Positions 2,072 through 55,079 of a stretch of DNA of 64,000 nucleotides are shown one piece after another (the first letter of the stretch is position 1; each line of letters starts with the position of its first letter). The stretch covers positions 14,507 through 78,506 of the forward strand of contig JBHPGP010000003.1 of assembly GCA_042570305.1 (NCBI GenBank), written 5' to 3'. The DNA is from Candidatus Omnitrophota bacterium (GTDB lineage Bacteria; Omnitrophota; Gorgyraeia; Gygaellales; JAHJCI01). The notes under the pieces are model-generated. The model saw nothing but the letters and a program-made list of their open reading frames with translations, was not told where the DNA came from and made no database searches. The translations under genes and the position numbers were made by a program.

Positions 2072-2109
2072 GAGCAATCGGTTGGATAATTTTTACAGGA
2101 GACTAAGAC

Positions 2110-4350: not shown

Positions 4351-6281
4351 CTGCGCAGTTGCCTTTCGGCGTCCACGATATCGCGGTTAATTACGCGCAT
4401 AACCTCGCGGGTTTTTTCTTTCAGGCTCTGGGAGGCAAAGGCAGAGCCGCTAATCTCCCTTAATATTTGTACTGCCATACGCAAGTAACGGATAACCTCT
4501 CCTTCGTCAGTATCGGTAAATTTTAGAATTTTGGAGAAAGCGGTTCCCGAGAGCCAGGCATGGGTTGTCTCTGAGAGGTGAAAGTAGGGTTTTTTGCTTT
4601 GCGGATATATGCGGTACTGCCTTTCCTTGGCTTGAATCAGCTCATGACTGTCCTCGCAGACGCTTCTCAGGTAACGGGCACTCTTGGGCAGGCGTCCGGG
4701 TATGCTCTGGTTTTTTCTAGGTTCGAATACCGCAGCCACTGCGAGCATTCCCAGGGCAAATTCATCAAGCCCTTCCAGCATTCCTCTCTGGTTGAGCTCA
4801 GAAAGGATTAATTCATAACCGTAGATTGAACGGGCAAAAAGCCCTTTTGGGGTAAGCATCGAATCCTGGATGTAGCCAGAGGTCTTTAATAGTTTTAATT
4901 TTGCCTGGATAAGCCTTACTGCTTCCTGTTTTTGGTGTTTGCGCGATTGGAAATTATGCAGGGTTAATGGATATACCTCGGTCACCCTCTCTTTATAGCG
5001 CTCATAGAGATTAAGCAGTGTGGCATAAGATGTATTAAACTGGCTTTTTACCGCCTCCGGATGAGCAAAGATTATGTGCCTGATGTCATCCGAATTTATC
5101 AGGCGCGGATTTATCCGGCAGTAAACAAAGCCGATCTTATCCATCCCCCGCCTGCCGGCGCGTCCGGCCATTTGAAAGAAATCGCGTACCTTGAGAATCC
5201 TCACATAGCGGCCGTAGTATTTCTTCAGGCTGTCAAAGACAACGCTTCTTGCCGGCATATTGATGCCCAGGGCAAATGTCTCTGTAGTAAAAATAACCTT
5301 AAGCAGCCGGCTGGTAAACAACTGTTCGATTACCTCCTTTAAGGTAGGCAGCATGCCGGCATGATGGTAGGCGATACCGTTTTTTATCAGTTGCAATAAA
5401 CTGCCTGCGCTTTGTTCGTGGGTTAAATCAAAGCGCCGGCAGAGCTTCTCGTATAAAGCGGTGATTTCCTGTTTTTCTTCCGGGTTCAGGAAGTTAGAGC
5501 CGTATAGCTCAAAGGCAAGGTCTTCGGCCCTTTTTCTGCTGAAGACGAACCAGATGCACGGCATGCCCTTGTTCTGCCGGATATAATTTATCAACTGATA
5601 CAGGCGGTTGGGGCGATGGAACCTTTTCTGGCTTTTTGAGGTGACCAGCCTCTTTAAATCCGGCAGGCTGTCTATTATTTTGCTCCTGCACTGGAATAGA
5701 AACTTCAGAGGCACAGGGCGCTTTTCTTCAATTACGATTTTAATCTCTCTTTTCTGCACTGATTCAATCCAGCCCGCGAATTCTCTGATATTTGGAATGG
5801 TTGCCGAGAGGGCCAGGATCTTCATATGAGAGGGAAGAAAAATCAGTGATTCCTCCCAGACCGTGCCCCTTTCCGGGTTATCGATATAATGAACTTCGTC
5901 AAAGATAACCCAGGAGTATTTTTTCAGTGATTCCGGCTGTTCGAGGATTTTATTGCGGAATATCTCGGTGGTCATAATCAGTACCTGGGCATCGGGGTTT
6001 AGCGAAACGTCTCCGGTGAGGATGCCGATTTCTCCGGGGAACTGCTGCTGGAAATCCCGGAACTTCTGGTTGGACAGGGCCTTTATGGGAGCAGTATAGA
6101 TTATGCCTTCCTGCTTCTTCAGTGATTGCTGTATCACATATTCGGCAATTGCTGTTTTTCCTGCTCCCGTAGGGGCAGAAACGATTACCGAGTATCCGCC
6201 GTTTATGTGGTCGATTGCTTCTTGTTGAAACCGGTCATATTGCATAAAATCATTATAACACATTTTTAGATATTGCCGCAC
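4347..6281 (-). CDS. Ski2/HelY-like DEVH-box SF2 RNA helicase with DSHCT-like C-terminal domain
   Basis: 644-aa ORF with APTGAGKT (motif I), FDEVH (motif II), SAT (motif III) and QMAGRAGRRG (motif VI), plus a C-terminal helical region like the DOB1/SKI2/HelY C-terminus. It is the only minus-strand gene in the window. Confidence 0.8.
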   Translation of the reverse strand: MRQYLKMCYNDFMQYDRFQQEAIDHINGGYSVIVSAPTGAGKTAIAEYVIQQSLKKQEGIIYTAPIKALSNQKFRDFQQQFPGEIGILTGDVSLNPDAQVLIMTTEIFRNKILEQPESLKKYSWVIFDEVHYIDNPERGTVWEESLIFLPSHMKILALSATIPNIREFAGWIESVQKREIKIVIEEKRPVPLKFLFQCRSKIIDSLPDLKRLVTSKSQKRFHRPNRLYQLINYIRQNKGMPCIWFVFSRKRAEDLAFELYGSNFLNPEEKQEITALYEKLCRRFDLTHEQSAGSLLQLIKNGIAYHHAGMLPTLKEVIEQLFTSRLLKVIFTTETFALGINMPARSVVFDSLKKYYGRYVRILKVRDFFQMAGRAGRRGMDKIGFVYCRINPRLINSDDIRHIIFAHPEAVKSQFNTSYATLLNLYERYKERVTEVYPLTLHNFQSRKHQKQEAVRLIQAKLKLLKTSGYIQDSMLTPKGLFARSIYGYELILSELNQRGMLEGLDEFALGMLAVAAVFEPRKNQSIPGRLPKSARYLRSVCEDSHELIQAKERQYRIYPQSKKPYFHLSETTHAWLSGTAFSKILKFTDTDEGEVIRYLRMAVQILREISGSAFASQSLKEKTREVMRVINRDIVDAERQLRS

Positions 6282-9216: not shown

Positions 9217-9283
9217 GGGGGCACCCTTTTATACAGCTTAAGGGGTGTCCCCCGATTGGCTAAGAGGGTATTTTTGGGTGTCC
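9217..9283 (-). repeat. CCAATCGG-core palindromic element, copy a (reverse orientation, extended)
   Basis: Sequence: GGGGGCACCCTTTT...AAGGGGTGTCCCCCGATTGGCTAAGAGGG...GGGTGTCC. The reverse complement contains TTAGCCAATCGGG, identical to copy d. Confidence 0.7.
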
Positions 9284-9350
9284 GAGTTAGTGAGGCCACC
9301 AGGGGTATTGTTAAAACCATGGCTAATATTTACTTGGTGGGTTTTATGGG
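9282..9350 (+). repeat. 69-bp direct repeat, copy 1 (duplicate of aroK RBS region + first 32 coding nt)
   Basis: 68/69 identical to 9392-9460. The single difference is T9311 vs C9421. Confidence 0.95.
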
Positions 9351-9369: not shown

Positions 9370-9391
9370 GGAGCACCGCTTAGAACGGTGG

Positions 9392-9460
9392 CCGAGTTAG
9401 TGAGGCCACCAGGGGTATTGCTAAAACCATGGCTAATATTTACTTGGTGGGTTTTATGGG
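9392..9460 (+). repeat. 69-bp direct repeat, copy 2 (authentic aroK 5' end)
   Basis: 68/69 identical to 9282-9350 at an offset of 110 nt. Confidence 0.95.
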
Positions 9461-9941: not shown

Positions 9942-10875
9942 TTGGCTTAAGTTAACGCTTATTCCCGCCATCGGTCCGGCAAGGCTGAAGATGCTGCGAG
10001 AAAGATTCTTGCAGCCGGATAAAATTTTCGCTGCTTCAGAAAAAGAGCTTGCTTCGGTTTTGGGTGCTGAGCCTGCCGGGGTAATCCAGCGGCAGCGAAA
10101 GGAAATTGATTTGGCCAGGCAGCTGCGCCTGATAGAGAAGTATCGTGTTCAGATTATTACTCAGGATGACGCATCCTACCCAAAGAACCTGAGGAGTATA
10201 TTCGACGCCCCTTTTTTATTATTTTTGCAGGGCGAGCTTTCACCGGGAGACGATTTTGCAATTGCCGTTGTGGGCACCAGGATGGCAACGCTGTATGGAA
10301 TGAATATGGCGCGTAAGATCAGCATCCAGTTAGGGCAGGCAGGGTTTACGATTGTCAGCGGGGGAGCCAGGGGAATTGATACAGCCGCTCATCAGGCAGC
10401 GTTGGGGATAAATGCGCGCACAATTGCGGTAATAGGATGCGGCCTGGATGTGGTTTATCCTTCTGAAAATGCGCGTCTGTTTCAACGGATTGCGCAAAGG
10501 GGTGCGGTGATTTCCGAGTTTCCTATGGCAACCGCGCCTTTTCGCCAGAACTTCCCTCAGCGTAACCGCATTATCAGCGGTTTATCTATGGGGGTAGTTG
10601 TTGTTGAAGCGCCGGTCAGGAGCGGTGCCCTGATTACTGCTTCGGCTGCGCTGGAGCAGGGCCGCGAGGTCTTTTGCGTGCCAGGAGAGGCTGACAGTTT
10701 TACCATGAAGGGCAGCCACCAGCTGTTAAGGGAAGGGGCAAGATTAGTCGAGGGTATTGAAGACATTATTGAGGAGATAGAACCTATATTGAGAAACAGA
10801 TTAGTAAAAAGGGACACCCTGCCGATTGGCTCAAAGGGTGTCCCCCGAACGGATGAAAGGATGTCCCTTAAATGA
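9919..10875 (+). CDS. dprA: DNA-processing protein DprA (Smf)
   Basis: 318 aa with an N-terminal HhH-like region and a Rossmann-like DprA core (VVGTR..., SGGARGID, VVVVEAPVRSGALITA). It has the conserved dprA-topA synteny and an ATGA overlap with topA. Its 3' tail is encoded by a palindromic repeat copy. Confidence 0.88.
   Translation: MLEAKTLDWLKLTLIPAIGPARLKMLRERFLQPDKIFAASEKELASVLGAEPAGVIQRQRKEIDLARQLRLIEKYRVQIITQDDASYPKNLRSIFDAPFLLFLQGELSPGDDFAIAVVGTRMATLYGMNMARKISIQLGQAGFTIVSGGARGIDTAAHQAALGINARTIAVIGCGLDVVYPSENARLFQRIAQRGAVISEFPMATAPFRQNFPQRNRIISGLSMGVVVVEAPVRSGALITASAALEQGREVFCVPGEADSFTMKGSHQLLREGARLVEGIEDIIEEIEPILRNRLVKRDTLPIGSKGVPRTDERMSLK
10811..10844 (-). repeat. CCAATCGG-core palindromic element, copy b (minimal 34-bp form, inside dprA 3' coding end)
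   Basis: GGGACACCCT-gccgattggctcaa-AGGGTGTCCC is a perfect 10-bp inverted repeat. The reverse complement reads GGGACACCCTTTGAGCCAATCGGCAGGGTGTCCC. Confidence 0.8.
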
Positions 10876-12848
10876 AGAATGCATTAGTAATTGTGGAGTC
10901 GCCAACCAAGGCAAAAACCATCGGCAACATTTTGGGCAAGGGTTATTCAATCATTTCTTCAATGGGGCATATTATTGACCTGCCGCGCAAGAAGCTGGGG
11001 ATTGATATGGAAAATGAGTTCAGTCCGGAATTCGTGGTTATTTCCGGAAGGCAGAAGATATTAACCGCACTAAAGAAAGAGGCAGCCGGTAAAGACAAGA
11101 TTTATATTGCTACTGACCCTGACCGCGAAGGCGAGGCAATCGGGTGGCATATCAAGGAGAAATTAGCCGGAAAGAGAAAATTCCTGAGGGTGGTTTTCCA
11201 TGAGATTACCCCTCAGGCAATAAAGGAGGCATTCCATAACCCGCGAGGCTTTGATGCGAATATGGTTGAGGCTCAGTTTGCGCGCCGCATCCTTGATAGA
11301 ATCGTGGGTTATTTCTTAAGCCCTTTGCTCTGGCGTAAGATCAGCCGCGGTTTAAGCGCAGGCAGGGTGCAATCCGTAGCCCTGCGCTTACTCGTGCAGC
11401 GCGAAAGAGAAATCCAGAAATTCGTTCCTCAGGAATACTGGGAGATTGAGGCAGAGCTGCGCAAGAAATCCGCCTCAAAGAAACAAAGCAGCTTTACGGC
11501 AAAATTAGAGAAGATAGGAGAAGACAAGGCCCAGATACAAGATAAGCAGGCTGCGGATAATCTATTAGAGGATTTAAAGGACAAGGCGTTTATCGTCAGC
11601 GGAATCAAACAGAGCGAAAAAAAGCGCAGGCCATCGCCTCCTTTCATTACCAGCACCTTGCAGCAGGAGGCGTTTAATAAGTTAAAGTTTGGTATCAGGC
11701 GTACAATGATCATTGCCCAGCAATTATACGAAGGCATTGAGCTGGGCGGGAAAGCCCCGGTAGGTTTAATTACCTATATGAGAACCGATTCTACCAAGGT
11801 GGCGGCTTCTGCGCTTGTGCAGGTACGTAATTTTATACTTAATAATTTTGGCAAACATTACCTGCCCGACTCACCGAATATCTATAAGACCAAAAGGCTG
11901 GCACAGGAGGCCCACGAGGCAATCCGGCCGGCTTCGCTTGAGTATACTCCGGAGAGCATAAAAGACTCCCTCAATAAAGAACAGCATAAATTATATGAAT
12001 TAATCTACAACCGGTTTGTCGCCAGCCAGATGGCGCCGGCACGTTATCTGGTAACCCAGGTGAAGATCAAGGCAGATAACTATTTGTTTTCCGTTTCCGG
12101 GACCAAGGTTATCTTTCAGGGGTTTACCAGGGTTTATAACCGCGAGGAGGAAGAGGATAAGGCATTACCTGATTTGGAAAAGGACGAGGCGCTGGATTTA
12201 ATCAAGCTTATTCCCAGCCAGCATTTTACCAGGCCGCCCAGCCGTTATTCGGAGGCTTCGCTGGTTAAAGTTTTGGAAGAAGCGGGCATTGGCCGTCCCT
12301 CGACTTATGCCCCGATAATCCTTACCATTATTAACCGGGATTATGCGCGCCGCATCAAAGGGTACTTTCACGCCACTGAGTTAGGTTTTAAGGTCTGCGA
12401 TTTGCTGGTAGAATATTTCCCCCGCATCCTGAATATGAAATTTACTGCCCAGATGGAGGATGAACTGGATAAGATTGAAGAGGGGCAGTGCGATAGATTG
12501 AAGGTATTAAATGACTTTTACCCGCCCTTTAAATCCCTTCTGGATTATGCTCAGAAGCATATTAAGAAAGAGATAATCCTTACTGAGGAAGTCTGCAAGC
12601 AGTGCGGCCGTCCTCTGGCAATAAAGTGGGGCCGCCGGGGGAAATTCCTGAGTTGTTCCGGGTTTCCCGAATGCAAATATTCCAAAACTATCACTACCGG
12701 CGTGAAGTGTCCGTCGCCGGGATGTGATGGCGAATTAGTCCAACGCCGTTCAAAGCGCGGCGCATTCTACGGCTGTTCTAATTTCCCCAAATGCCGCTTT
12801 ACCAGCAGGGATTTACCCGCGCCCAAAGAGGATGCAACGCTACATTGA
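10872..12848 (+). CDS. topA: DNA topoisomerase I
   Basis: 658 aa with a Toprim N-terminus (LVIVESPTKAKTI), the catalytic-Tyr region (GLITYMRTDS) and two C-terminal C4 zinc fingers. Confidence 0.93.
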   Translation: MKNALVIVESPTKAKTIGNILGKGYSIISSMGHIIDLPRKKLGIDMENEFSPEFVVISGRQKILTALKKEAAGKDKIYIATDPDREGEAIGWHIKEKLAGKRKFLRVVFHEITPQAIKEAFHNPRGFDANMVEAQFARRILDRIVGYFLSPLLWRKISRGLSAGRVQSVALRLLVQREREIQKFVPQEYWEIEAELRKKSASKKQSSFTAKLEKIGEDKAQIQDKQAADNLLEDLKDKAFIVSGIKQSEKKRRPSPPFITSTLQQEAFNKLKFGIRRTMIIAQQLYEGIELGGKAPVGLITYMRTDSTKVAASALVQVRNFILNNFGKHYLPDSPNIYKTKRLAQEAHEAIRPASLEYTPESIKDSLNKEQHKLYELIYNRFVASQMAPARYLVTQVKIKADNYLFSVSGTKVIFQGFTRVYNREEEEDKALPDLEKDEALDLIKLIPSQHFTRPPSRYSEASLVKVLEEAGIGRPSTYAPIILTIINRDYARRIKGYFHATELGFKVCDLLVEYFPRILNMKFTAQMEDELDKIEEGQCDRLKVLNDFYPPFKSLLDYAQKHIKKEIILTEEVCKQCGRPLAIKWGRRGKFLSCSGFPECKYSKTITTGVKCPSPGCDGELVQRRSKRGAFYGCSNFPKCRFTSRDLPAPKEDATLH

Positions 12849-13692
12849 TAAGTTCTTAAGATATCTGGAGATCGAGAAGAATTATTCCTCGCTTACCCTG
12901 TTGAATTACCGGGTGGACCTGGAAGATTTCAGCAGCTTTCTCAGGCAGACGCCATTAGAGAAGGTAGATTATTTAGCCTTAAGGAGGTACCTGGCGCATC
13001 TGAAAGAGAGAAGGTTAGGCACGCGCAGCATAGCCCGTAAGCTTTCCTGCCTGCGTTCCTTTTTCAAGTTTCTCTGCCGCGATAATTACCTGAAAAGCAA
13101 TCCTGCGCTGAGCCTGAGCGCAATGAGGCTGGATAAACACCTGCCCTCATTCTTGACCGAAGAGCAGGTGTTGAAGTTATTGCAGGCGCCCGGAGGCAGC
13201 ACCGAAAGGGACCTGCGCGACCAGGCGATCCTGGAGACGTTTTACAGCACAGGGATGCGCATTTCAGAATTGGTGGGCATGAATATCGATGATTTGGATT
13301 TTATCAGCGGCGTAGCTAAAGTCAGGGGTAAGGGGAAAAGGGAACGCCTGCTTCCCATCGGAGAGTATGCGCTGAAGGCGATCCGGTCATATTTGGAGAA
13401 AAGAAAAAAGAAATCCAACTCCTTATTCTTGAATAAGAATAACACCCGCTTATCCGACCGGGGGGCAAGGAACGTGGTGCGTAAGTATATCCGTCTTGCT
13501 TCATTAAGCGGCGGTATCTCAGCGCATAGCTTAAGGCATTCCTTTGCTACGCACCTCTTAAACCGCGGAGCAGACTTAAGAAGCGTACAGGAGCTTTTAG
13601 GACATGCTAATTTGTCTACAACCCAAATTTATACGCATCTTACTACTGAGAAGCTAAAGAGCGTCTATGATAAGGCTCACCCCAGGGCATAA
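12832..13692 (+). CDS. xerC: Tyrosine recombinase XerC/XerD family
   Basis: 286 aa with an N-terminal SAM-like domain and the catalytic R...HxLRHSFATHLL...GH...TQIYTH signature. It follows topA as in many genomes. Confidence 0.85.
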   Translation: MQRYIDKFLRYLEIEKNYSSLTLLNYRVDLEDFSSFLRQTPLEKVDYLALRRYLAHLKERRLGTRSIARKLSCLRSFFKFLCRDNYLKSNPALSLSAMRLDKHLPSFLTEEQVLKLLQAPGGSTERDLRDQAILETFYSTGMRISELVGMNIDDLDFISGVAKVRGKGKRERLLPIGEYALKAIRSYLEKRKKKSNSLFLNKNNTRLSDRGARNVVRKYIRLASLSGGISAHSLRHSFATHLLNRGADLRSVQELLGHANLSTTQIYTHLTTEKLKSVYDKAHPRA

Positions 13693-13702
13693 AGGAGGTA
13701 AA

Positions 13703-14377
13703 ATGAAGCCCAAGATTTTACTAATATTATCAACCGTCTTTTTGTTTGCCTGTTTTATTAATCTTCAGGAGGTAGTTATGGCTGAATTAACCAAGATCCA
13801 GTTGCCCGAACCGGTTAAGCAAGGCAAGATGTCTGTAGAGGAAGCCATCTTAAACAGGCGCTCGGTAAGGAATTTCACGCAAAGGGATTTAGGCTGGCCT
13901 GAAATCAGTCAATTACTCTGGGCAGCTCAGGGTATCACCGCAAAAAAGGGCAGCCTTTCCTTGCGCTCCGCTCCCTCAGCAGGAGCCCTTTACCCCCTTG
14001 AGATTTACCTTTTTAATTCGCAGGGAATGTTTCATTATCTGCCGCAGTCTCATAAGCTGGAGGTTCTTGCCGAAGGAGACCTGCGCAGCGTTCTTTGCGA
14101 AGCTGCCCTGTCTCAGGCATCTGTTGCTCAGGCAGCGGTTGATATTGTTATCTGCGCGGTCCCTCAACGGGTAACCGCCAAATACGGCGAACGGGGAATG
14201 AAATATGTGTATATTGAAGCCGGGCACGTTGCCCAGAATATTCATTTAGCAGCAGTTGCCTTAGGCCTGGATTCATTGCCTGTCGGAGCATTTAGCGATG
14301 AGCAGGTTAGTGCAATTTTATCCCTGCCTGCAGAGCAAGAGCCTGTTTACATTATCCCAGTCGGTTACGCCCAATGA
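13703..14377 (+). CDS. Nitroreductase-family (SagB-type) oxidoreductase with N-terminal signal/anchor
   Basis: ATG 13703 follows AAGGAGG. RRSVRNF and GALYPLE motifs are typical of the nitroreductase/SagB fold. The hydrophobic N-terminus is KILLILSTVFLFACF. Confidence 0.7.
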   Translation: MKPKILLILSTVFLFACFINLQEVVMAELTKIQLPEPVKQGKMSVEEAILNRRSVRNFTQRDLGWPEISQLLWAAQGITAKKGSLSLRSAPSAGALYPLEIYLFNSQGMFHYLPQSHKLEVLAEGDLRSVLCEAALSQASVAQAAVDIVICAVPQRVTAKYGERGMKYVYIEAGHVAQNIHLAAVALGLDSLPVGAFSDEQVSAILSLPAEQEPVYIIPVGYAQ

Positions 14378-14435
14378 GGGACACCCTGTTTACCAATCGG
14401 GAGTCTGGCGTAGGGCTAATCGGGAGCCTGTCCCC
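14378..14435 (+). repeat. CCAATCGG-core palindromic element, copy c (full length)
   Basis: Sequence: GGGACACCCTGTTTACCAATCGGGAGTCTGGCGTAGGGCTAATCGGGAGCCTGTCCCC. It starts directly after the nitroreductase stop codon. Confidence 0.85.
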
Positions 14436-18791: not shown

Positions 18792-20888
18792 ATGAACATA
18801 TTGCAAATATTACCCGAGCTTAATGTCGGAGGAGTGGAAACAGGGGTGCGTGACTTCGCCGGCTTTCTGGTCAAGCAGGGGCACAAAAGCGTGGTGGTCT
18901 CCAATGGCGGGGCCTTGGTCGCAGACTTAGAACGGCAGGGCTCTAAACACTATAGCCTTCCCGTGCACAGGAAGTCGCCCTTTACCATTTTGCAGATGAT
19001 TCCCAAACTCAGCGAGATTATCCGTAAGGAAAATATCAATATTGTCCATGCCCGCTCGCGGGTTCCTGCCTGGATTGCCTTTTTCGCCTGTCGCCGCACG
19101 CGCAGGGTCTTCATTACTACCTGCCACGGTTATTACAGTGCCCATTTTGCCAGCAGGCCAATGGTCTGGGGCAAATTAGCCATCTGCCCCAGCCAGGTGA
19201 TTGCCAGCCACGTGAACAAGGATTTTGGCCTTCCCTTGGAACGCATACGCCTGGTTCCCCGCGGCGTAGATTTAGAAAGGTTCAGGTTTATTCCTCCTGA
19301 CAAAAAGGGTTCAGGCGTCTTTAACATCGGCATCATCGGACGGTTAAGCCCGATAAAAGGCCACAGCCATTTCCTGCGTTCGATAGTGCGCGTAATCAGG
19401 CAGGTTAACTCTCTGCCGGTAAAAATCTGGATAGTAGGAGGGGCCTCTGCCTCACAGCAAAATTATAAGCACGATTTGGAAGTTCTGGTCAAAAGGCTGG
19501 GATTGGGTTACTGCACCGAGTTTCTGGGAACACAGCAGGATATACCCGGAATTCTATCTGACCTTAATCTCCTGGTTGTTCCATCGGCTCGCCACGAGGC
19601 TTTCGGAAGAGTAATTATTGAGGCCCAGGCAGCAGGTGTACCAGTAATCGCAACCAGGGTGGGAGGTATAGTGGATATCATCGATGATAATCTGACCGGC
19701 ATTCTGGTTGCTCCCGGTGACGTGGAAGGGTTATCCCGTGCGATAATCCGGATAATGAACGATAAATCCTTAAGCAGTTATTTAGCCCAGAATGCCTATC
19801 AGAAGCTAAAGCAGAATTTCACCTTAGAGATAATGAGCCGCAAGACTTTGGAAGTTTATCAAGAGGCGCTTGTGCAGTTCAGGGTTCTGGTGATTAAATT
19901 GAGTGCCCTGGGTGACATAATTCTGACTATTCCCAGTTTACGCGCAATCAGAAAGAAATTTCCCAAAGCAAATTATAAAATCAGCCTGCTGGTTAACGTT
20001 CCCTATCAGGAGGCCTTGTTTCATTGTCCTTATGTCGATGAGCTAATTGTATCAGACCTCAATGATAAGGATAAGGGCATCAGGAGCATCTTAAATTTTA
20101 GCCGGGAGTTAAAAAAAGGTCATTTTGATTTTGTAATTGATCTGCAGAACAACCATAAAAGCCACCTCTTAAGCTTCTTGAGCCACATACCCGTACGTTA
20201 CGGCTACCGGAGGAAATTCGGCCTTTTGCTTAACCACTCGCTTCCTGTAGGGAAAATGGACCAGGGGCCTATCGAGCATCAGTTCAGACTATTGAAGATG
20301 CTGGATATAGAACTCAATAGCCCCCGTCTTGAGCTTTGGCCGGGCAGGAAAGACGAGGCGTATATTGAGAATTTCCTGAATCAGCAATGGATAAGCCCAA
20401 GGCAAGTTTTGGTTGGAATAAACCTCAGCGCGAGTAAAAAATGGCAGACCAAGGCCTGGCCGATAGAGCACATTGCCAGCCTTTGCGAAAGCCTCAGCTT
20501 AAAAGACATACGGGTAGTGTTTACCGGAGATGCCGATGACTCCCTGCGCGCCAGGGAGATTCTGGACCTGGTAAAAGGCGCAAAACCGGTTGTGGCCTGC
20601 GGCAAGACCAGCATTAATCAATTAATCTGTTTGATTAAGAGGTGCCAGGTCTTTATTAGTTCGGATTCCGCGCCCCTGCATATTGCTGCTGCGGTGGGCA
20701 CACCCTATGTCGCCCTGTTCGGACCAACCGACCCGGGGAGTCATCTTGCCTCAGGATACAAAGGCTCAACTATCCATAAGGACCTTGCCTGCAGCCCGTG
20801 TTATAAATCCAGATGCAGAACCACGGAGTGTATGCGCGCGATAAAGCCGCAAGAGGTATTGGAAGCGATGCAGGAATTATTGAAATGA
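18792..20888 (+). CDS. Fusion protein: GT4 glycosyltransferase + GT9 (heptosyltransferase-like) domain
   Basis: 698 aa. The N-terminal half is GT4 (NVGGVETGV..., EAFGRVIIEAQAAGVPVIATRVGG). From ~residue 363 it is GT9 (VLVIKLSALGDIILTIPSLRAI..., SSDSAPLHIAAAVGTPYVALFGPTDP). Confidence 0.75.
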   Translation: MNILQILPELNVGGVETGVRDFAGFLVKQGHKSVVVSNGGALVADLERQGSKHYSLPVHRKSPFTILQMIPKLSEIIRKENINIVHARSRVPAWIAFFACRRTRRVFITTCHGYYSAHFASRPMVWGKLAICPSQVIASHVNKDFGLPLERIRLVPRGVDLERFRFIPPDKKGSGVFNIGIIGRLSPIKGHSHFLRSIVRVIRQVNSLPVKIWIVGGASASQQNYKHDLEVLVKRLGLGYCTEFLGTQQDIPGILSDLNLLVVPSARHEAFGRVIIEAQAAGVPVIATRVGGIVDIIDDNLTGILVAPGDVEGLSRAIIRIMNDKSLSSYLAQNAYQKLKQNFTLEIMSRKTLEVYQEALVQFRVLVIKLSALGDIILTIPSLRAIRKKFPKANYKISLLVNVPYQEALFHCPYVDELIVSDLNDKDKGIRSILNFSRELKKGHFDFVIDLQNNHKSHLLSFLSHIPVRYGYRRKFGLLLNHSLPVGKMDQGPIEHQFRLLKMLDIELNSPRLELWPGRKDEAYIENFLNQQWISPRQVLVGINLSASKKWQTKAWPIEHIASLCESLSLKDIRVVFTGDADDSLRAREILDLVKGAKPVVACGKTSINQLICLIKRCQVFISSDSAPLHIAAAVGTPYVALFGPTDPGSHLASGYKGSTIHKDLACSPCYKSRCRTTECMRAIKPQEVLEAMQELLK

Positions 20889-21961
20889 ATATTTTAATCC
20901 TCACCAATCATCTGAGCATCGGAGGCATTACCCGCTATGTACTGACCCTGAGTTACGCCCTAAAGAAACAAGGCAACAGGGTTTTTGTCGGTTCCCTGCC
21001 AGGAGAGGGCGAAAGGTTTTTAGAGGAAAACGATATACCCTGGTTGAGTCTACCGCTTAAGACAAAGTCGATCCTCAGCCCCCGCCTGCTTCCCGCTTAC
21101 CTGATTCTTAAAAAATTTATAAAGAAGGAGAATATCCATCTTATTCATGCCCAGACCCGCATTACTCAGTTTCTTGCCTTTTTATTAAGCAGGGATTTGG
21201 GTATTCCCTATGTCTCTACCTTCCACGGATTCTATCGCCCGCATTTAGTGCGCAAATTATTCCCATTCGGGGGAAATTTAACCATTGCAATCAGTCAGGC
21301 AGTGGCAGGGCATTTGATTAAAGATTTTAAGCTGAATAGAGAGAACCTGCGGGTGATTTATAACTCCGTCGGACCGGATGCGGAATATTCAGCGGATAAA
21401 GATTACAGTTATCTTAAGGCAAGCCCCACGCTGGGCATTGTCGCTAGGCTTTCAAAGGAAAAGGGGCATTTAATACTTTTCTCTGCCTTTAAGCAGTTGG
21501 CCAAGGAGTATCCTGAAGCGCGGCTGCTGGTGGTTGGTACAGGAAAAACAGAAGAAGAGCTAAAAGATTGGGTAGCTAAAGAAAATCTTGCTGAGCGGAT
21601 TGTCTTCCTGGGCAACATCGCGCAGCTGAGGTCGTTTTTTGCTATTCTTGACCTTATGGTTTTGCCTTCTATCCAGGAGGGCTTGGGGTATTCTGTTTTG
21701 GAAGCGCAGGCAGCCGGCGTGCCGGTTGTTGCCAGCTCAGTCGGCGGGATAACTGAGGTCATTCAAGACAGAGAAACCGGGATTCTGGTTGAGCCGGGCG
21801 TTCCTGCTGAATTGTATCAGGCAATCAAGCTGCTCTTAGGAGATGCCGGGATGCGCCGGAGGATAGTGGAAAATGCAAGAAAACAAATTCAGGAGAGGTT
21901 TTCGCTGGAGAAAATGGTTGCGCAGGTTGAGGCTGTTTATAAAGAATTAGTAAAGCGATGA
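20885..21961 (+). CDS. GT4 family glycosyltransferase (LPS core)
   Basis: ATG 20885 forms an ATGA overlap with the upstream stop. The sequence starts MNILILTNHLSIGGITRYV... and contains the EGLGYSVLEAQAAGVPVVASSVGG E-x7-E region. Confidence 0.8.
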   Translation: MNILILTNHLSIGGITRYVLTLSYALKKQGNRVFVGSLPGEGERFLEENDIPWLSLPLKTKSILSPRLLPAYLILKKFIKKENIHLIHAQTRITQFLAFLLSRDLGIPYVSTFHGFYRPHLVRKLFPFGGNLTIAISQAVAGHLIKDFKLNRENLRVIYNSVGPDAEYSADKDYSYLKASPTLGIVARLSKEKGHLILFSAFKQLAKEYPEARLLVVGTGKTEEELKDWVAKENLAERIVFLGNIAQLRSFFAILDLMVLPSIQEGLGYSVLEAQAAGVPVVASSVGGITEVIQDRETGILVEPGVPAELYQAIKLLLGDAGMRRRIVENARKQIQERFSLEKMVAQVEAVYKELVKR

Positions 21962-22977
21962 AGAAGATACTCGTATTTGCTACGAACTGGCTAGGCGATA
22001 CGCTCTTCCTGTTTCCTTTGCTCGACGGGTTAAGGCATAATTTCAGGCAATCAAGCCTGGCTGTAGTGTCGGTTCCCCGCGTAAAGGGTATTTTTGCGAA
22101 TAACCGCAATGTCGAAGAAATCATTGTTTATGACGAGAAGGGAAGGCACAGGGGCTTATTCTCTCGGATTGCCCTGATTTCTCAATTACGGAAAAAGGGG
22201 TTTGATACGGCCTTTATGATTAAGCCGTCTTTAAGCCGGGCACTCATACTTAAGCTTGCCGGGATAAAGGAAATCATTGGCTTTGCCAATCCCAAGAGCG
22301 GCTGGTTGCTTACAAAGCAGATTCCGCAGCCGGATAAGGCGCTGCATAAGATAGATTCTTTTTTAAGCATACTCCAACACCTTAAATTTAAGGTCGAACA
22401 GCGCAGATATGAATTCCTGCCTTACCAAGAAGAGAAGACTCATATTGAAAATCTACTTAGAAAAAAAGGCTTTAATCCGGACCTGCCCCTGTTAGTAATA
22501 AATCCTGGAGCAAACTGGTTTCCCAAGCGCTGGCCGCCGGAGAATTTTGCCGAGTTGGTTAAAAGGCTGAAATCAGGCTTCAGGCTGAATGTGGCAATTA
22601 CCGGAGCTGAGAAAGACCGGGAGTTATCCGGGAAAATTATCGAGCAGTCAGGTGCGGATATCCTTGATTTTACCGGGCAGACAACATTCGGGCAATTGGG
22701 CGCCTTGATGCAGAGGGCGGACATAGTTATTTCTGCTGATTCAGGTCCGATGCATATTGCGGCTGCAGTGGGTAAAAAGGTAATCGCGCTCTTTGGCCCT
22801 ACCTCTGCAAAGCTTACAGGCCCCTATCCTCCGGAAGAACATATTATAATTCAGGGTAAGCCGGAGGATTGCAGGGTTCCCTGTTATGATTCAAGCTGCC
22901 GCGACTATCGCTGCATGAAGTCAATTACGGTTGATGAAGTTTTCCAGAAGGTAACACAGTTATTGAAAGTAAAATGA
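21958..22977 (+). CDS. GT9 family glycosyltransferase (ADP-heptose:LPS heptosyltransferase-like)
   Basis: 339 aa with ILVFATNWLGDTLF and SADSGPMHIAAAVGKKVIALFGPT motifs. ATGA overlap with the upstream gene. Confidence 0.8.
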   Translation: MKKILVFATNWLGDTLFLFPLLDGLRHNFRQSSLAVVSVPRVKGIFANNRNVEEIIVYDEKGRHRGLFSRIALISQLRKKGFDTAFMIKPSLSRALILKLAGIKEIIGFANPKSGWLLTKQIPQPDKALHKIDSFLSILQHLKFKVEQRRYEFLPYQEEKTHIENLLRKKGFNPDLPLLVINPGANWFPKRWPPENFAELVKRLKSGFRLNVAITGAEKDRELSGKIIEQSGADILDFTGQTTFGQLGALMQRADIVISADSGPMHIAAAVGKKVIALFGPTSAKLTGPYPPEEHIIIQGKPEDCRVPCYDSSCRDYRCMKSITVDEVFQKVTQLLKVK

Positions 22978-23408
22978 ACCTGTTCCTTTTTTCGCTCAGC
23001 GTAGATTTTGCTCTTTCGTACAATATCCAGATTTCAGGTCTTTTGCCTCGAGCACGAAACTTTTTGCCGTCTGCTTCGGTTTACTCCTCACTCCCGTGCG
23101 ACTATCGCAGACCAGGACTCTCCGTTCGTCGTAATTCCTCGCAGACTTCTGCCAAAAAGTTTCTAATTGTGCTCTTCGTCAAAATCCCTAAAATCTTACA
23201 AAGTTGGCTGAAGCGGCTACGAGGTTTGCCCTTCGCTTACGCTCAGGGTCATGATTTCGAGCGGGACGTGTGGAGCCCGAGCGGGCAGGGTTTGCTGTGA
23301 TGGACCTTTCTCCAAGAGCGAGGACGAACGTCGAGTGAAGTTTTTCCTCGCTGGGGAAAAACGAACGTTCCCGCGAGAAAGCAAACCAAAGTAAGCCGCT
23401 AAGGATTA
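22978..23408 (+). other. 431-bp non-coding spacer with nested helices inside the LPS operon (candidate structured RNA / cis-regulatory leader / decayed element)
   Basis: There is no credible ORF. A composite 23-bp helix spans 23050-23074 with 23141-23174. A three-stem module at 23289-23387 pairs GGTTTGCT/AGCAAACC, AGCGAGGA/TCCTCGCT and GGGAA/TTCCC. Strand is assumed from the flanking genes. Confidence 0.35.
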
Positions 23409-24380
23409 ATGACCATAAACAAGGTGTTGTTTTTTACGCTGAGTAATTTCGGCGACGTGATACTCTCGCTGCCGGTGCTGGACGTTTTGCGCTCAGAATA
23501 CCCCAAGGCCTTAATCACCGTGATGGTCGGGCCGCGCGCGTCAGAGGTTTTTCAAGATAACCCGTATATAAACGAGCTGATTATTTACGATAAATACGTT
23601 TCATTAAAAGAAAAAATCAGGTTGTTTTTCAGGCTGAAAAAAGAACGCTTTGATTTGGTAATCGATTTACGCAATAGCCTCTACGGAGCACTGCTGCCTG
23701 CGAGGTTCAAGACATCGCCGTTCCTGCACCCGCCCGCCAACATCCGGCACATGAAACAGCGAAACCTTTACAGGCTGAGGGCGGCGTTAAAACAGAACGG
23801 ATTATGGGCGACGGTGAAGGAGAGGGTGCTTTATACCAGCCCTGAAGATAAAAAATATCTTAACGCGCTCCTTCAGGATAACGGCATTAATCCCAAAGAT
23901 AGAATAATCATTGTCAGTCCTGCGACAGGCGGCAGGACCAGGAGGTGGGCAAGGGAGAATTTTATCGAGCTTTGCAAGAAACTGGCTGCGGATTATCCGG
24001 TAGTCCTGGTCGGCAGAAAACAGGATAAGCCATTGAGCGCATACATCCAGAGCAAGGTTTCCGGCAGGGTTTTTGATTTTTCCGGATTAACCAGCCTTGC
24101 GCAACTTGTTTTTCTTTTAGAGAAGTCTTCGCTGGTAGTTGTCTGTGATACGGGTATTCTGCAGTTAGCCAGTTACCTGGATATACCCATTGTGGCATTG
24201 TTCGGCCCCAGTGACGAACACAGGTACGGGCCCTGGTCCGGCAGATTTAAGTTAGTTTCCGCAAAGACTGCCTGCCGGCCGTGTACTGAACCCGACTGCC
24301 GGTTTAAAACCAATGAATGTATGCATAAAATAAGCGTAGAACAGGTATTGGATTCCATTGACGAGTTAATGAAATTATGA
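23409..24380 (+). CDS. GT9 family glycosyltransferase (heptosyltransferase-like)
   Basis: 323 aa with VLFFTLSNFGDVILSLPVL and CDTGILQLASYLDIPIVALFGPSD motifs. Confidence 0.8.
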   Translation: MTINKVLFFTLSNFGDVILSLPVLDVLRSEYPKALITVMVGPRASEVFQDNPYINELIIYDKYVSLKEKIRLFFRLKKERFDLVIDLRNSLYGALLPARFKTSPFLHPPANIRHMKQRNLYRLRAALKQNGLWATVKERVLYTSPEDKKYLNALLQDNGINPKDRIIIVSPATGGRTRRWARENFIELCKKLAADYPVVLVGRKQDKPLSAYIQSKVSGRVFDFSGLTSLAQLVFLLEKSSLVVVCDTGILQLASYLDIPIVALFGPSDEHRYGPWSGRFKLVSAKTACRPCTEPDCRFKTNECMHKISVEQVLDSIDELMKL

Positions 24381-24397
24381 TAATATAATAACTCAAA

Positions 24398-25333
24398 ATG
24401 ATTGATTTCAATAAGGTTAAAACCTATTCATCCAAAAGGGGGACATTCAAGGTGAAGAAGCGGGATTTTGCCCGTGCCCCCAGAAAAAGGGACAGTTTCC
24501 TTGGTTTTTATCAGTCTCTGCCCTCGATACTGAAGGCCAAGGATTTAGATAATACGGTTGGCGCAATCATTCAGGCAGCCAAAAAGAAAAAGCCGGTGAT
24601 ATTTATGTGCGGGGCGCATGTAATCAAATGCGGTCTCAGTCCGGTGGTAATTGAACTGATTAACAAGGGAATGCTAACCTGTCTTAGCTTGAACGGCGCA
24701 GGGATAATCCACGATTTTGAGATTGCTTATCAGGGCACAACCTCTGAGGACGTAGCCCGTTCATTAAGCCGCGGCAGATTCGGCATGAACCGCAGGACAG
24801 CCCAGTTTCTTAATCAGGCAGTATCCGCCGGGGCAGTTCAGGGTTTTGGGTTGGGCGAGAGCGTCGGGGAGGCAATGATTAAGCAGCGACTCCCTTTTGC
24901 CAATTTGAGCATTATCTGTAAGGCAATCAAGTCAGGCATTCCGGTTACTGTTCACGTTGCCGTAGGCACAGACATTATCCACCAGCACCCCAGTTTCGAT
25001 GCCGGGTTGACTGCCGATGCCAGCCTGCGGGATTTCCGTGTTCTGGTAGAGCAGGTTTCGCGCCTAGGCGACGGGGGAGTGGTGCTTAATTTCGGTTCTG
25101 CAGTGGTTTTGCCGGAGGTTTTTCTCAAGGCATTGAATCTTGCCAGGAACCTCAGGTTTAGAGTGCGTAATTTTACCACGGCAAATTTCGATATGATTTA
25201 TCATTATCGCCCGGCAGAGAATATTGTGCGCAGGCCCGTTATGCCGGGAGGTAAAGGGTATTACTTTGTCGGGCATCACGAGATTATGCTGCCGCTTTTA
25301 GCGCAGGCAGTCATTGAAAAGTTGCGCAGATGA
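24398..25333 (+). CDS. Deoxyhypusine-synthase-like (DHS-like NAD-binding fold) protein of unknown function
   Basis: 311 aa. By-eye alignment to DHS gives these correspondences:
- IFMCGAHVIKCGLSPVVIELINKGMLTCLSLNGAGIIHDFEIA to [43 protein letters not shown]
- KSGIPVTVHVAVGTD to KNHIPVFSPALTDG
- a C-terminal LPLL motif
The region around the DHS catalytic Lys is not conserved. Confidence 0.45.
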   Translation: MIDFNKVKTYSSKRGTFKVKKRDFARAPRKRDSFLGFYQSLPSILKAKDLDNTVGAIIQAAKKKKPVIFMCGAHVIKCGLSPVVIELINKGMLTCLSLNGAGIIHDFEIAYQGTTSEDVARSLSRGRFGMNRRTAQFLNQAVSAGAVQGFGLGESVGEAMIKQRLPFANLSIICKAIKSGIPVTVHVAVGTDIIHQHPSFDAGLTADASLRDFRVLVEQVSRLGDGGVVLNFGSAVVLPEVFLKALNLARNLRFRVRNFTTANFDMIYHYRPAENIVRRPVMPGGKGYYFVGHHEIMLPLLAQAVIEKLRR

Positions 25334-35953: not shown

Positions 35954-38507
<2,554 letters not shown>

Positions 38508-55000: not shown

Positions 55001-55022
55001 TGTTTACACTTTCTAAAGTCTA

Positions 55023-55079
55023 GGGACATCCTTTTAGCCAATCGGGAGTCTGGCACGGAGCCAATCGTCAGTGTGTCCC
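55023..55079 (+). repeat. CCAATCGG-core palindromic element, copy d (full length)
   Basis: Sequence: GGGACATCCTTTTAGCCAATCGGGAGTCTGGCACGGAGCCAATCGTCAGTGTGTCCC. It is collinear with copy c and lies between the DUF2905 gene and tgt. Confidence 0.85.

What the first reader, a model, noticed from the sequence alone, without database searches (positions are those of the whole stretch)
22978..23408. 431-bp non-coding insert with nested long-range helices in the middle of the tightly packed LPS core operon
Genes in this operon typically overlap by 4 bp or are separated by short gaps (under ~70 bp), yet the two GT9 genes are separated by 431 bp with no credible ORF. The only ORF (22974-23300) is low-complexity and starts inside the upstream gene.
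- Helix: a 125-nt composite helix is built from GAGCAC/GTGCTC (23050-55 with 23169-74), GAAACTTTTTG/CAAAAAGTTTC (23056-66 with 23153-63) and GTCTGC/GCAGAC (23069-74 with 23141-46). It encloses a small hairpin TGCGA-cta-TCGCA (23097-23109).
- Direct repeat: CGAGCGGG occurs twice (23258-65 and 23278-85).
- Three-stem module: this lies 21 nt upstream of the next ATG and pairs GGTTTGCT/AGCAAACC (23289-96 with 23380-87), AGCGAGGA/TCCTCGCT (23317-24 with 23345-52) and GGGAA/TTCCC (23354-58 with 23368-72). ACGAACGT is repeated within it at 23324-31 and 23361-68.
I see no match to the RNase P, SRP, tmRNA or 6S signatures I know. Candidate explanations are a structured ncRNA, a cis-regulatory leader for the distal part of the operon, or a decayed mobile or toxin-antitoxin remnant.
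Basis: seen in the sequence. Interest (0 to 1): 0.6.

Follow-up and report, generated by a model that had tools for sequence, protein, structure and literature searches.

The report
Nested palindromic repeat elements between LPS genes

Summary
Every helix sits at the stated coordinates. The gap is non-coding and lies inside a tightly packed LPS-core/Kdo operon of a Candidatus Omnitrophota genome.

Comparison with relatives explains it:
- **Empty site:** the same two GT9 genes lie 15 bp apart in one relative.
- **Other contents:** other relatives carry different things at this junction, so it is an insertion hot spot.

The spacer has three palindromic parts:
- **T1:** a 41-nt unit overlapping the upstream stop codon, here split.
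- **H (22999-23200):** It has no detectable sequence relative.
- **M (23211-23401):**

M behaves as a discrete, movable unit:
- It is inverted at this junction in one relative.
- A second copy sits upstream of a PolX gene.
- It is 86-93% identical between genomes whose flanking genes are 70-77% identical.

No Rfam match, covariation, promoter, terminator or protein homology was found.

Best reading: nested MITE-like (Correia/ERIC-like) elements tolerated within the operon. An invertible switch or a selected RNA function for M is not excluded. Copy number within one genome could not be measured.

The parts
21958..22977 (+). Upstream GT9 heptosyltransferase gene (annotated by NCBI as lipopolysaccharide heptosyltransferase II). 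Its TGA stop (22975-22977) lies inside the first bases of unit T1.
   Evidence: Pfam Glyco_transf_9 at 2.7e-38. P0001 is the identical NCBI protein from Candidatus Omnitrophota. Alignment with orthologues.
22974..22998 (.). T1-left: the left half of a 41-nt palindromic unit (ATGAACCTG..TTCGCTCAAAAA..CAGGTYCAT). The unit sits at the stop codon of this gene in most relatives.
   Evidence: The T1 profile matches window 22974-22998 and L006/L007/L008/L009/L013, L012 (inverted), L019 (split), L020, L021, L022 and L025 (two copies). The intact unit folds as a hairpin, z = -3.2 and -3.6.
22999..23200 (.). Element H: a roughly 200-bp long imperfect hairpin inserted after the TCGCTCA of T1.
   Evidence: Fold z = -4.3 (+) and -6.9 (-), with 0 of 200 shuffles as good. 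Inverted pairs I1 and I7. Absent from L006, which shares the rest of the spacer. L019 has a roughly 165-nt hairpin with similar ends (GTCGATTT/AAATCGAC) at the same point in T1, flanked by direct repeats TCGCTCMAA. The L020 and L023 contigs end inside similar sequence.
23211..23231 (.). Left inverted-repeat end of module M (AAGCGGCTACGAGGTTTG...).
   Evidence: Aligns with TAGCGGMTACGAGGTTTG of L006/L008/L021. Pairs with 23382-23401.
23232..23254 (.). A 23-nt piece (TTCGCTTACGCTCAGGGTCATGA) that resembles the right half of T1. It interrupts M, and relatives do not have it at this position.
   Evidence: Present as an insertion relative to L006/L008/L021 in the alignment. The pair ATGAACCTG...CAGGGTCAT was found at 22974-23252. 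Inverted pair 22995-23003/23238-46.
23255..23401 (.).
   Evidence: The M profile matches window 23212-23401 at E 2e-48, L006/7/13 at 1.7e-58, L021 on the opposite strand at 6e-57, and L016 (a different locus) at 4e-30. Identity is 86-93% against 70-77% in the flanking genes.
23401..23405 (+). AAGGA, a Shine-Dalgarno-like sequence 3 nt before the ATG of the downstream gene. Its first base is the last base of M.
   Evidence: Read directly from the sequence. M also ends 6-9 nt before the ATG in L006 (GT9) and L016 (PolX).
23409..24380 (+). Downstream GT9 glycosyltransferase gene, intact.
   Evidence: Pfam Glyco_transf_9 at 4.5e-25. 76% identical over its full length to the L001 orthologue, with the same N-terminus MTINKVLFFTLSNFGDV.

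Best explanation
The 431-bp spacer is non-coding selfish or repeat DNA: a mosaic of three small palindromic units that accumulated at an insertion hot spot between two LPS heptosyltransferase genes.

- **T1** is a 41-nt palindromic unit sitting on the stop codon of the upstream gene. It is ancestral in this clade.
- **H** is a roughly 200-bp long-hairpin element lying in T1's loop region.
- **M** is a roughly 175-bp unit with about 33-nt imperfect terminal inverted repeats. It lies between H and the downstream start codon.

The 'nested long-range helices' are the inverted ends and palindromic bodies of these units. They are properties of the DNA that hold on both strands.

Shown:
- an empty site in a relative;
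- a discrete M unit with constant ends in four different flanks;
- both orientations of M;
- a second locus carrying M;
- much higher conservation of M than of the flanking genes;
- no coding or Rfam signal.

Inferred:
- M, and probably H, arrived by transposition in the manner of a MITE. The TA dinucleotide at both ends of M would fit a TA target duplication.
- The insert is tolerated because it carries no terminator, so the operon is read through.
- M's end contributes an AAGGA ribosome-binding site for the downstream gene.
- The hairpins become part of the polycistronic mRNA. There they could be RNase III/E substrates or stabilisers, as shown for Correia and ERIC elements.
For: - **Empty site:** in L001/L010/L011 the same two genes are 15 bp apart. 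In L003 and L004 they overlap or abut.
- **Variable content at the same junction:** L006-L009 carry T1 + M without H. L021/L022 carry T1-left + M inverted. L019 carries T1 split by another hairpin element, flanked by the direct repeat TCGCTCMAA. L012 carries an inverted T1 plus a 196-aa ORF. L025 carries two T1 units flanking a two-gene cassette.
- **M is a discrete unit:** its ends TAGCGG...CCGCTA are the same in four contexts, and sequence diverges immediately outside them. The inverted-repeat model has 91% of cells paired.
- **Second locus:** an M copy abuts a PolX gene in L016, from the same sample as L007.
- **Conservation:** M is 86-93% identical between genomes whose GT9 genes are 70-77% identical, and only 45-60% identical at third codon positions.
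- **Contig ends:** contigs L009 and L022 end 25-30 nt into M, L016 starts inside M, and L020 and L023 end inside T1/H-like sequence. This is expected where assemblers meet repeats.
- **Palindromic on both strands:** significant folding on + and -, while the flanking genes give z about 0.
- **Non-coding:** copies differ by 1-2-nt indels, and there is no protein homology.
- **Known behaviour:** MITE clusters with elements inserted into one another, inversion, promoters and RNase processing are all documented for bacterial MITEs (PMC10969869).
Against: - **Copy number within one genome is unproven.** No second copy of M, H or T1 exists in the 64-kb window or in 21 kb of the syntenic contig L026. 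Only two loci carrying M are known.
- **No transposase or parent IS with matching ends was identified.**
- **Target-site duplications are ambiguous.** The TA at M's ends cannot be separated from the inverted repeat.
- **M is conserved along its whole length, especially the right half.** That is more than transposase binding alone would require, and it would also fit a selected function.
- **M's right end lies 6-9 nt from a start codon in both independent loci.** This could hint at a function in expression.
- **The order of pieces in the window needs extra rearrangements.** A T1-right fragment sits inside M, and I could not reconstruct how it got there.
- **H of the window and the L019 hairpin share only their ends**.
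Confidence: 0.62

Rival explanations
1. M is an invertible DNA switch (inverton). A site-specific recombinase would flip the roughly 175-bp segment between its inverted repeats, changing expression of the downstream GT9 and Kdo genes and producing phase variation of the LPS core.
For: - Roughly 33-nt inverted repeats bound M.
- M has opposite orientation at the same junction in L021/L022 compared with L006 and the window.
- Contigs break just inside the repeats.
- Surface-polysaccharide genes are typical inverton targets (PMC11892184 and PMC11602134).
- Correia elements are also reported to invert (PMC10969869).
Against: - No sigma-70-like promoter lies inside M in either orientation, and there is no terminator.
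- No recombinase gene is next to the locus in the window, L006/L026 or L021. The only one, at 12832-13692, is a XerC/D-like gene in a conserved dprA-topA-xer cluster 10 kb away.
- All four contigs of the P0002 lineage, from four samples, show one orientation.
- M's distance from T1 and from the ATG differs between L006 and L021. This fits separate insertions better than in-place flipping.
- A further copy sits at an unrelated gene.
Confidence: 0.1
2. M (or H) encodes a functional structured RNA. This could be a 5' leader acting on the downstream gene or an independently transcribed small RNA, with purifying selection explaining its high conservation.
For: - M is 86-93% identical where third codon positions of neighbouring genes are 45-60% identical.
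- Folding is significantly better than shuffles.
- M's right end abuts the start codon and supplies part of the Shine-Dalgarno-like sequence in the window, L006 and L016.
Against: - No Rfam match even at E<10 beyond noise.
- The orientation is inverted in L021/L022, so no single strand is kept relative to the operon.
- The junction is empty in L001 with both genes intact.
The inverted-repeat stems show only 1 double change, which 157 of 500 shuffles match.
- No promoter or terminator was found.
- Both strands fold about equally well for M.
- Power is low, with only five sequences.
Confidence: 0.12
3. The spacer is the decayed remnant of a gene (for example another transferase or a toxin-antitoxin pair) that once sat between the two GT9 genes.
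For: - Relatives do carry genes at this junction: a 196-aa ORF in L012, and DUF6788 + NTP_transf_8 + ICMT in L025.
- ORF 22974-23300 starts with an ATGA overlap, like real genes of the operon.
Against: - No Pfam hit in any spacer ORF at E<10.
- No homologue by word-indexed or exhaustive HMMER search.
- The ORF is not conserved. L006 reads 24 codons and L012 reads 17. The L019 ORF aligns only over the first 12 residues, which are encoded by the shared T1/H ends.
- Copies of M differ by 1-2-nt indels.
Confidence: 0.03

Closest known systems
Correia elements (CREE/NEMIS) of Neisseria, and bacterial MITEs in general
   Same: - Size of 100-200 bp, with terminal inverted repeats of about 26-33 nt and no coding capacity.
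- A TA dinucleotide at both ends.
- Located immediately upstream of genes and inside operons, in either orientation.
- They form long hairpins in mRNA, and insertion/empty-site polymorphism is seen between relatives.
- Inversion and nesting or clustering are reported for MITEs (PMC10969869).
   Different: - No sequence similarity was found: no match in plasmids, phages or E. coli genomes. Neisseria genomes themselves were not searched.
- Correia occurs in more than 100 copies per genome, whereas only two loci are documented here.
- No promoter or IHF site was detected in M.
- No cognate transposase is known.
ERIC / IRU (127-bp enterobacterial repetitive intergenic consensus)
   Same: - An imperfect palindrome found in intergenic regions of operons, in either orientation.
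- Nucleotide sequence conserved across genera far beyond the neutral expectation.
- Variable presence at orthologous sites.
- Internal insertions and deletions give size variants. Compare the 18-nt deletion in L008 and the 23-nt insertion in the window.
   Different: - Unrelated sequence and an unrelated phylum.
- Copy number is unknown.
- ERIC's effects on mRNA decay have been demonstrated, and nothing is demonstrated here.
REP / BIME / REPIN palindromic units
   Same: - T1 is a 41-nt imperfect palindrome placed right at a stop codon inside an operon.
- It serves as a site where other DNA is inserted. From general knowledge, REPs are known targets of IS elements.
- H is a long hairpin, like a REPIN.
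   Different: - REPs occur in tens to hundreds of copies and are tied to RAYT transposases. T1 was seen only at this junction (twice in L025).
- No RAYT was looked for.
Invertons (invertible promoters such as fimS and the Bacteroides PS promoters)
   Same: - Inverted repeats bound a segment of a few hundred bp next to surface-polysaccharide genes.
- Both orientations are seen among relatives.
   Different: - No internal promoter and no nearby dedicated recombinase.
- No evidence of both orientations within one population.
- An extra copy sits at an unrelated gene.

Membership tests
Prokaryotic MITE | Small (about 50-500 bp) and without a transposase gene | tested here: met
   M is 172-190 bp and H about 200 bp. 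No Pfam hit or protein homologue in any spacer ORF.
Prokaryotic MITE | Terminal inverted repeats | tested here: met
   M has TAGCGGCT..GGTTTG..TTTC..GCGGGA against TCCCGC..GAAA..CAAACC..AGCCGCTA: 24 pairs, 91% of cells paired across 5 copies. H has GTAGATTTT/AAAATCTTAC and long arms.
Prokaryotic MITE | Target-site duplication flanking the element | tested here: inconclusive
   M has TA at both ends in L006 and L021 and at the one end held in L016, while the window's left end reads AA. This cannot be separated from the inverted repeat itself. The L019 hairpin element is flanked by TCGCTCAAA / TCGCTCCAA. The window equivalent is rearranged.
Prokaryotic MITE | Several dispersed copies in one genome | tested here: inconclusive
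   A second M copy lies upstream of PolX in L016, from the same sample as L007. No other copy exists in the 64-kb window or the 21-kb L026. Contigs break inside M, T1 and H. The whole genome was not searchable.
Prokaryotic MITE | Presence/absence polymorphism at orthologous sites (empty site) | tested here: met
   L001/L010/L011 have a 15-bp junction with both genes intact.
Prokaryotic MITE | A parent insertion sequence or transposase with matching ends | not testable with these tools
No transposase domain was found in the 30 of the window's 57 ORFs that were scanned.
ERIC/IRU | Sequence homology to the ERIC consensus | tested here: not met
   blastn with word size 11 of the whole spacer against 5,426 complete E. 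coli genomes gave no match.
Inverton | Inverted repeats flanking the segment | tested here: met
Inverton | Both orientations present within one strain or population | not testable with these tools
   Only assembled contigs were available. The orientation differs between lineages (L021 against L006 and the window) but is constant in the four contigs of one lineage.
Inverton | A promoter (or other directional signal) inside the invertible segment | tested here: not met
   No sigma-70-like site lies within M in the window, L006 or L021 on either strand. Other promoter types were not covered.
Inverton | A dedicated invertase encoded nearby | tested here: not met
   The neighbours are all LPS/Kdo genes. 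The only recombinase is XerC/D-like, 10 kb upstream, in a conserved dprA-topA-xer cluster.
Known structured RNA families / riboswitches (Rfam 15) | Covariance-model match | tested here: not met
   0 matches at gathering score in the 64-kb window. Only eukaryotic snoRNA/miRNA noise appears at E 0.7-9. 0 matches in L008, L016, L019 and L021 at E<0.1.
Cis-regulatory leader RNA | Constant strand and position relative to the regulated gene, and conservation in orthologous operons | tested here: not met
   Inverted in L021/L022. Absent in L001, L003, L004 and L024.
Cis-regulatory leader RNA | Compensatory base changes supporting the helices | tested here: not met
Power is low with 5 sequences.
Pseudogene / decayed gene | Translated similarity to a protein family | tested here: not met

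The most novel reading that the evidence does not exclude
M is not merely junk. It would be a roughly 175-nt mobile module kept 86-93% identical across Omnitrophota genera by selection. It would act either as an invertible switch or as a portable expression/RNA-processing cassette that plugs in 6-9 nt upstream of start codons (GT9, PolX). Under this reading, LPS-core heptosylation in these uncultured bacteria would be variable between cells or lineages. The conserved T1 palindrome would mark a cassette-exchange hot spot in the LPS operon.
Probability: 0.13. Interest if true: 0.6.

Novelty: new member of a known kind. Interest (0 to 1): 0.3.

Why it matters
As it stands, this explains an odd-looking structured gap as ordinary small repeat DNA, so it should not be pursued as a new RNA class.

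It still has modest value:
- It documents MITE-like and palindromic repeat units in Candidatus Omnitrophota. A full-text search found no paper that mentions Omnitrophota together with miniature inverted-repeat elements.
- It shows that the junction between two LPS heptosyltransferase genes is a recurrent insertion and cassette hot spot in this clade.
- It flags one unit (M) whose conservation far exceeds that of its neighbours. That is the same unexplained property that made ERIC elements interesting.

If M proved to be invertible or to act on expression, it would point to LPS-core variation in an uncultured phylum.

Tried and rejected
- **Rfam** at gathering score and at E<10, in the window and in relatives: nothing.
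- **Pfam** on all five spacer ORFs at E<10: nothing.
- **ORF 22974-23300** against 5.8 billion proteins (word-indexed) and 1.84 billion representatives (exhaustive): 0 hits.
- **Six-frame translation trick.** I concatenated six-frame translations of the window and L006 spacers into one protein query, hoping to catch spurious ORF calls over other element copies. Nothing scored at E<=1.
- **Exact look-ups** of the window's own GT9 proteins: not on record.
- **Metagenome scan with a 20-mer of M.** It returned 2 true contigs and 4 chance hits. L007 and L008 also contain the 20-mer but were not returned, so the scan is not exhaustive and says little about copy number.
- **Viral contigs, plasmids, phages and E. 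coli genomes:** no match.
- **blastn (word size 7) and nhmmer profiles** of M, T1 and H against the window and all 27 loci: no further copies. The hit at 38214-38270 lies in a coding sequence and is chance.
- **H of the window against the L019 hairpin element:** no detectable similarity beyond the ends.
- **JUMPStart/ops, dif and attC resemblances** were considered by eye and rejected, because the defining motifs are absent. This is inference from the sequence, not a tool test.
- **Order of insertion events.** I could not reconstruct a stepwise history that places a T1-right fragment inside M in the window.
Full report

Yes.

Folding against 200 dinucleotide shuffles:

| Segment | z, + strand | z, - strand | Shuffles as good |
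|---|---|---|---|
| 125-nt helix 23050-23174 | -4.2 | -5.0 | 0 of 200 |
| Larger hairpin 22999-23200 | -4.3 | -6.9 | 0 of 200 |
| 3' module 23211-23398 | -3.3 | -3.5 | 0 of 200 |
| 200-nt controls in both flanking genes | about 0 | about 0 | - |

- The 11-nt perfect inverted repeat is matched by 30 of 1000 shuffles. The 8-mer inverted pairs number 8 against 2.3 expected.
- The two 8-nt direct repeats are at chance level: 246 of 1000 shuffles have as many. One of them, ACGAACGT, is not conserved in relatives.
- The gap lies between two Glyco_transf_9 genes inside an operon that runs WaaA-LpxK-LpxL-like-GT4/GT9-GT4-GT9 | GT9-unknown-PfkB-KdsB-KdsA-KpsF.
- Nearly all 57 ORFs of the window are on the + strand with tiny gaps. 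This is the largest ORF-free gap.
- ORF 22974-23300 has no Pfam hit and no homologue in either the word-indexed or the exhaustive search.

**2. Whose genome, and what do relatives have at this junction?**

The upstream protein is identical to an NCBI protein of a Candidatus Omnitrophota bacterium. The next relatives are only 65-68% identical. Synteny is strong: L026 matches the window gene for gene over 21 kb. The junction between the two GT9 genes, however, varies.

| Locus (lineage) | Content of the junction |
|---|---|
| L001/L010/L011 (P0003) | Empty: stop and start 15 bp apart, both genes intact |
| L003, L004 (distant) | Genes overlap or abut |
| L006/L007/L008/L009/L013 (P0002) | About 260-bp spacer homologous to the window's, but lacking the 125-nt hairpin |
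| L021/L022 (P0006) | Same left end, then the 3' module on the opposite strand |
| L019 (P0005) | Same left end, a different 165-nt hairpin, then the matching right end |
| L012 (P0007) | A 39-nt palindrome, then a 196-aa ORF |
| L025 (P0014) | Three extra genes |
| L024 (P0017) | An unrelated 60-bp gap |

The module is conserved, but not in a fixed orientation.

**3. Anatomy**

Three units explain the spacer.

*T1.*
- It is a 41-nt palindromic unit, ATGAACCTG-N-TTCGCTCAAAAA-N-CAGGTYCAT, whose first bases contain the stop codon of the upstream gene.
- It is intact in L006.
- It is inverted in L012.
- It is present twice in L025, flanking a DUF6788 + NTP_transf_8 cassette.
- In L019 it is split by a hairpin element carrying the 8-9-nt direct repeat TCGCTCMAA on both sides.
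- In the window its left half is 22974-22998. A right-half-like piece lies at 23232-23252.

*H (22999-23200).*
- It follows TCGCTCA exactly as the insert does in L019 and L020.
- Its interior has no detectable relative. Only the ends resemble those of L019, L020 and L023.

*M (23211-23231 plus 23255-23401).*
- It is a 172-175-nt unit in relatives.
- Its ends TAGCGG...CCGCTA are the same in four different flanks, and similarity stops immediately outside them.
- Its two ends form about 33-nt imperfect inverted repeats, with 24 pairs and 91% of cells paired.

**4. Why M looks like a movable unit rather than a leader RNA**

- It is on the opposite strand in L021/L022, with a profile E-value of 6e-57 on the minus strand.
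- Its distance from T1 is 8 nt in L021 and about 44 nt in L006. Its distance from the ATG is 55 nt in L021 and 9 nt in L006.
- A further copy, 96% identical to L006 over the part held, lies 6 nt upstream of a PolX polymerase gene at the start of contig L016. That contig comes from the same metagenome as L007.
- Contigs end 25-30 nt into M (L009, L022), start inside it (L016), or end in T1/H-like sequence (L020, L023). This is what de Bruijn assemblers do at repeats or inversions. That reading is inference.
- M is 86-93% identical among the window, L006 and L021. The flanking GT9 genes are 70-77% identical, and their third codon positions only 45-60%. M therefore either arrived more recently than the lineages split or is under selection.
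- Copies differ by 1-, 2-, 18- and 23-nt indels, so M is not coding.

**5. Tests of the RNA readings**

- Rfam 15 gives nothing at gathering score in the whole window, only eukaryotic noise at E 0.7-9 in the spacer, and nothing in four relatives.
Pairs are broken in 3-4 of 5 sequences at three positions.
- The inverted-repeat stems are almost invariant. They show one double change, which 157 of 500 shuffles match. Power is low.
- No sigma-70-like promoter and no intrinsic terminator lies within the spacer in the window, L006 or L021.
- M folds equally well on both strands. This is expected for a DNA palindrome and not for a strand-specific RNA.

**6. Most likely mechanism**

*Shown:*
- The spacer is lineage-specific non-coding DNA.
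- It is made of palindromic units.
- One of these units is discrete, occurs at two loci and in both orientations, and is unusually conserved.

*Inferred:*
- M, and probably H, are MITE-like non-autonomous elements that landed in or next to the T1 palindrome, which acts as a hot spot.
- The TA at both ends of M would fit a TA target duplication.
- The insert is tolerated because it has no terminator, so RNA polymerase reads through to the distal GT9-Kdo genes.
- M's last base begins an AAGGA located 3 nt before the ATG. M also ends 6-9 nt before the start codon in L006 and L016.
- The hairpins become part of the operon mRNA and may be cut or may stabilise it. RNase III does this at Correia elements and RNase E at ERIC (PMC10969869).

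My confidence in this reading is about 0.6. The missing piece is the copy number within one genome.

**7. Rivals**

*Invertible switch (about 0.1).* It fits the inverted repeats, the opposite orientation in L021 and the gene class. Against it:
- it lacks a promoter;
- no invertase is encoded nearby, and the only recombinase in the scanned part of the window is a XerC/D-like gene in a conserved dprA-topA-xer cluster;
- no mixture of orientations within one lineage was seen.

*Selected RNA function for M (about 0.12).* It fits the high conservation and the position next to start codons. It conflicts with the strand flip, the empty site and the lack of covariation.

*Decayed gene (about 0.03).* There is no translated similarity of any kind.

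**8. Comparison with known systems**

- Functionally and architecturally the closest are bacterial MITEs: Correia elements (TA ends, roughly 26-nt inverted repeats, next to genes, hairpins in mRNA, inversion reported) and ERIC/IRU elements (imperfect palindromes inside operons, either orientation, conserved across genera beyond neutrality).
- T1 resembles a REP unit, and H resembles a REPIN-like hairpin.
- Membership of the generic MITE class is met for size, inverted repeats and empty-site polymorphism. It is inconclusive for target duplication and copy number, and untestable for a parent transposase.
- There is no sequence relationship to E. coli repeats, plasmids or phages.
- A full-text search for Omnitrophota together with 'miniature inverted-repeat' returned no paper.

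**9. Verdict**

Of the interpretations offered, the least exciting one is the supported one.

- Novelty: a new member of a known kind.
- Interest: about 0.3. What keeps it above the floor is M's unexplained conservation and the recurrent use of this LPS junction as an insertion and cassette site.

Noticed in passing
window 14377-14434, 55022-55079, 10808-10870 (inverted), and about 9219-9290: A separate family of roughly 58-65-nt palindromic repeats (AGGGACACCC...GGGTGTCCC). Three clear copies and one related piece lie between or at the ends of genes. This genome therefore carries other dispersed REP-like units.
   Followed up: partly
window 9277-9350 and 9387-9460: A 74-nt direct repeat (97% identical) duplicates the 5' end of the shikimate kinase gene, including its ATG and upstream bases. 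The copies are separated by 36 nt and sit next to one of the GGGTGTCCC repeats.
   Followed up: partly
L025 4023-5900; L012 4019-4945: The same GT9|GT9 junction holds gene cassettes in other Omnitrophota. In L025, DUF6788 + NTP_transf_8 are flanked by two T1 units (4023-4062 and 5158-5199), followed by an ICMT/PEMT methyltransferase. In L012 a 196-aa ORF without a Pfam family follows an inverted T1. T1 may mark a cassette-exchange site.
   Followed up: partly
L008 1440-1460 versus L006 4118-4150: Two near-identical contigs differ by an 18-nt deletion inside M, lying between the direct repeats CGAGCGGG and GAAGCGGG. It looks like a slippage or recombination deletion between short repeats.
   Followed up: yes
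window 12832-13692: A XerC/D-like tyrosine recombinase (Phage_integrase + SAM_1) follows DprA and topoisomerase I. The same cluster is syntenic in L026, so it is probably the housekeeping dimer-resolution enzyme.
   Followed up: no
window 24398-25333: A 311-aa protein has no Pfam family above threshold (a weak deoxyhypusine-synthase-like hit). It is conserved directly after the second GT9 gene in every relative that extends that far. It is an uncharacterised member of this LPS operon.
   Followed up: no
window 197-4350: Two adjacent paralogous TPR proteins (624 and 746 aa) carry 102-nt (34-residue) tandem repeats and long segments duplicated 1895 nt apart.
   Followed up: no
window 18792-20888: A 698-aa fusion protein combines a GT4 glycosyltransferase and a GT9 heptosyltransferase domain. 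It is conserved in all close relatives.
   Followed up: no
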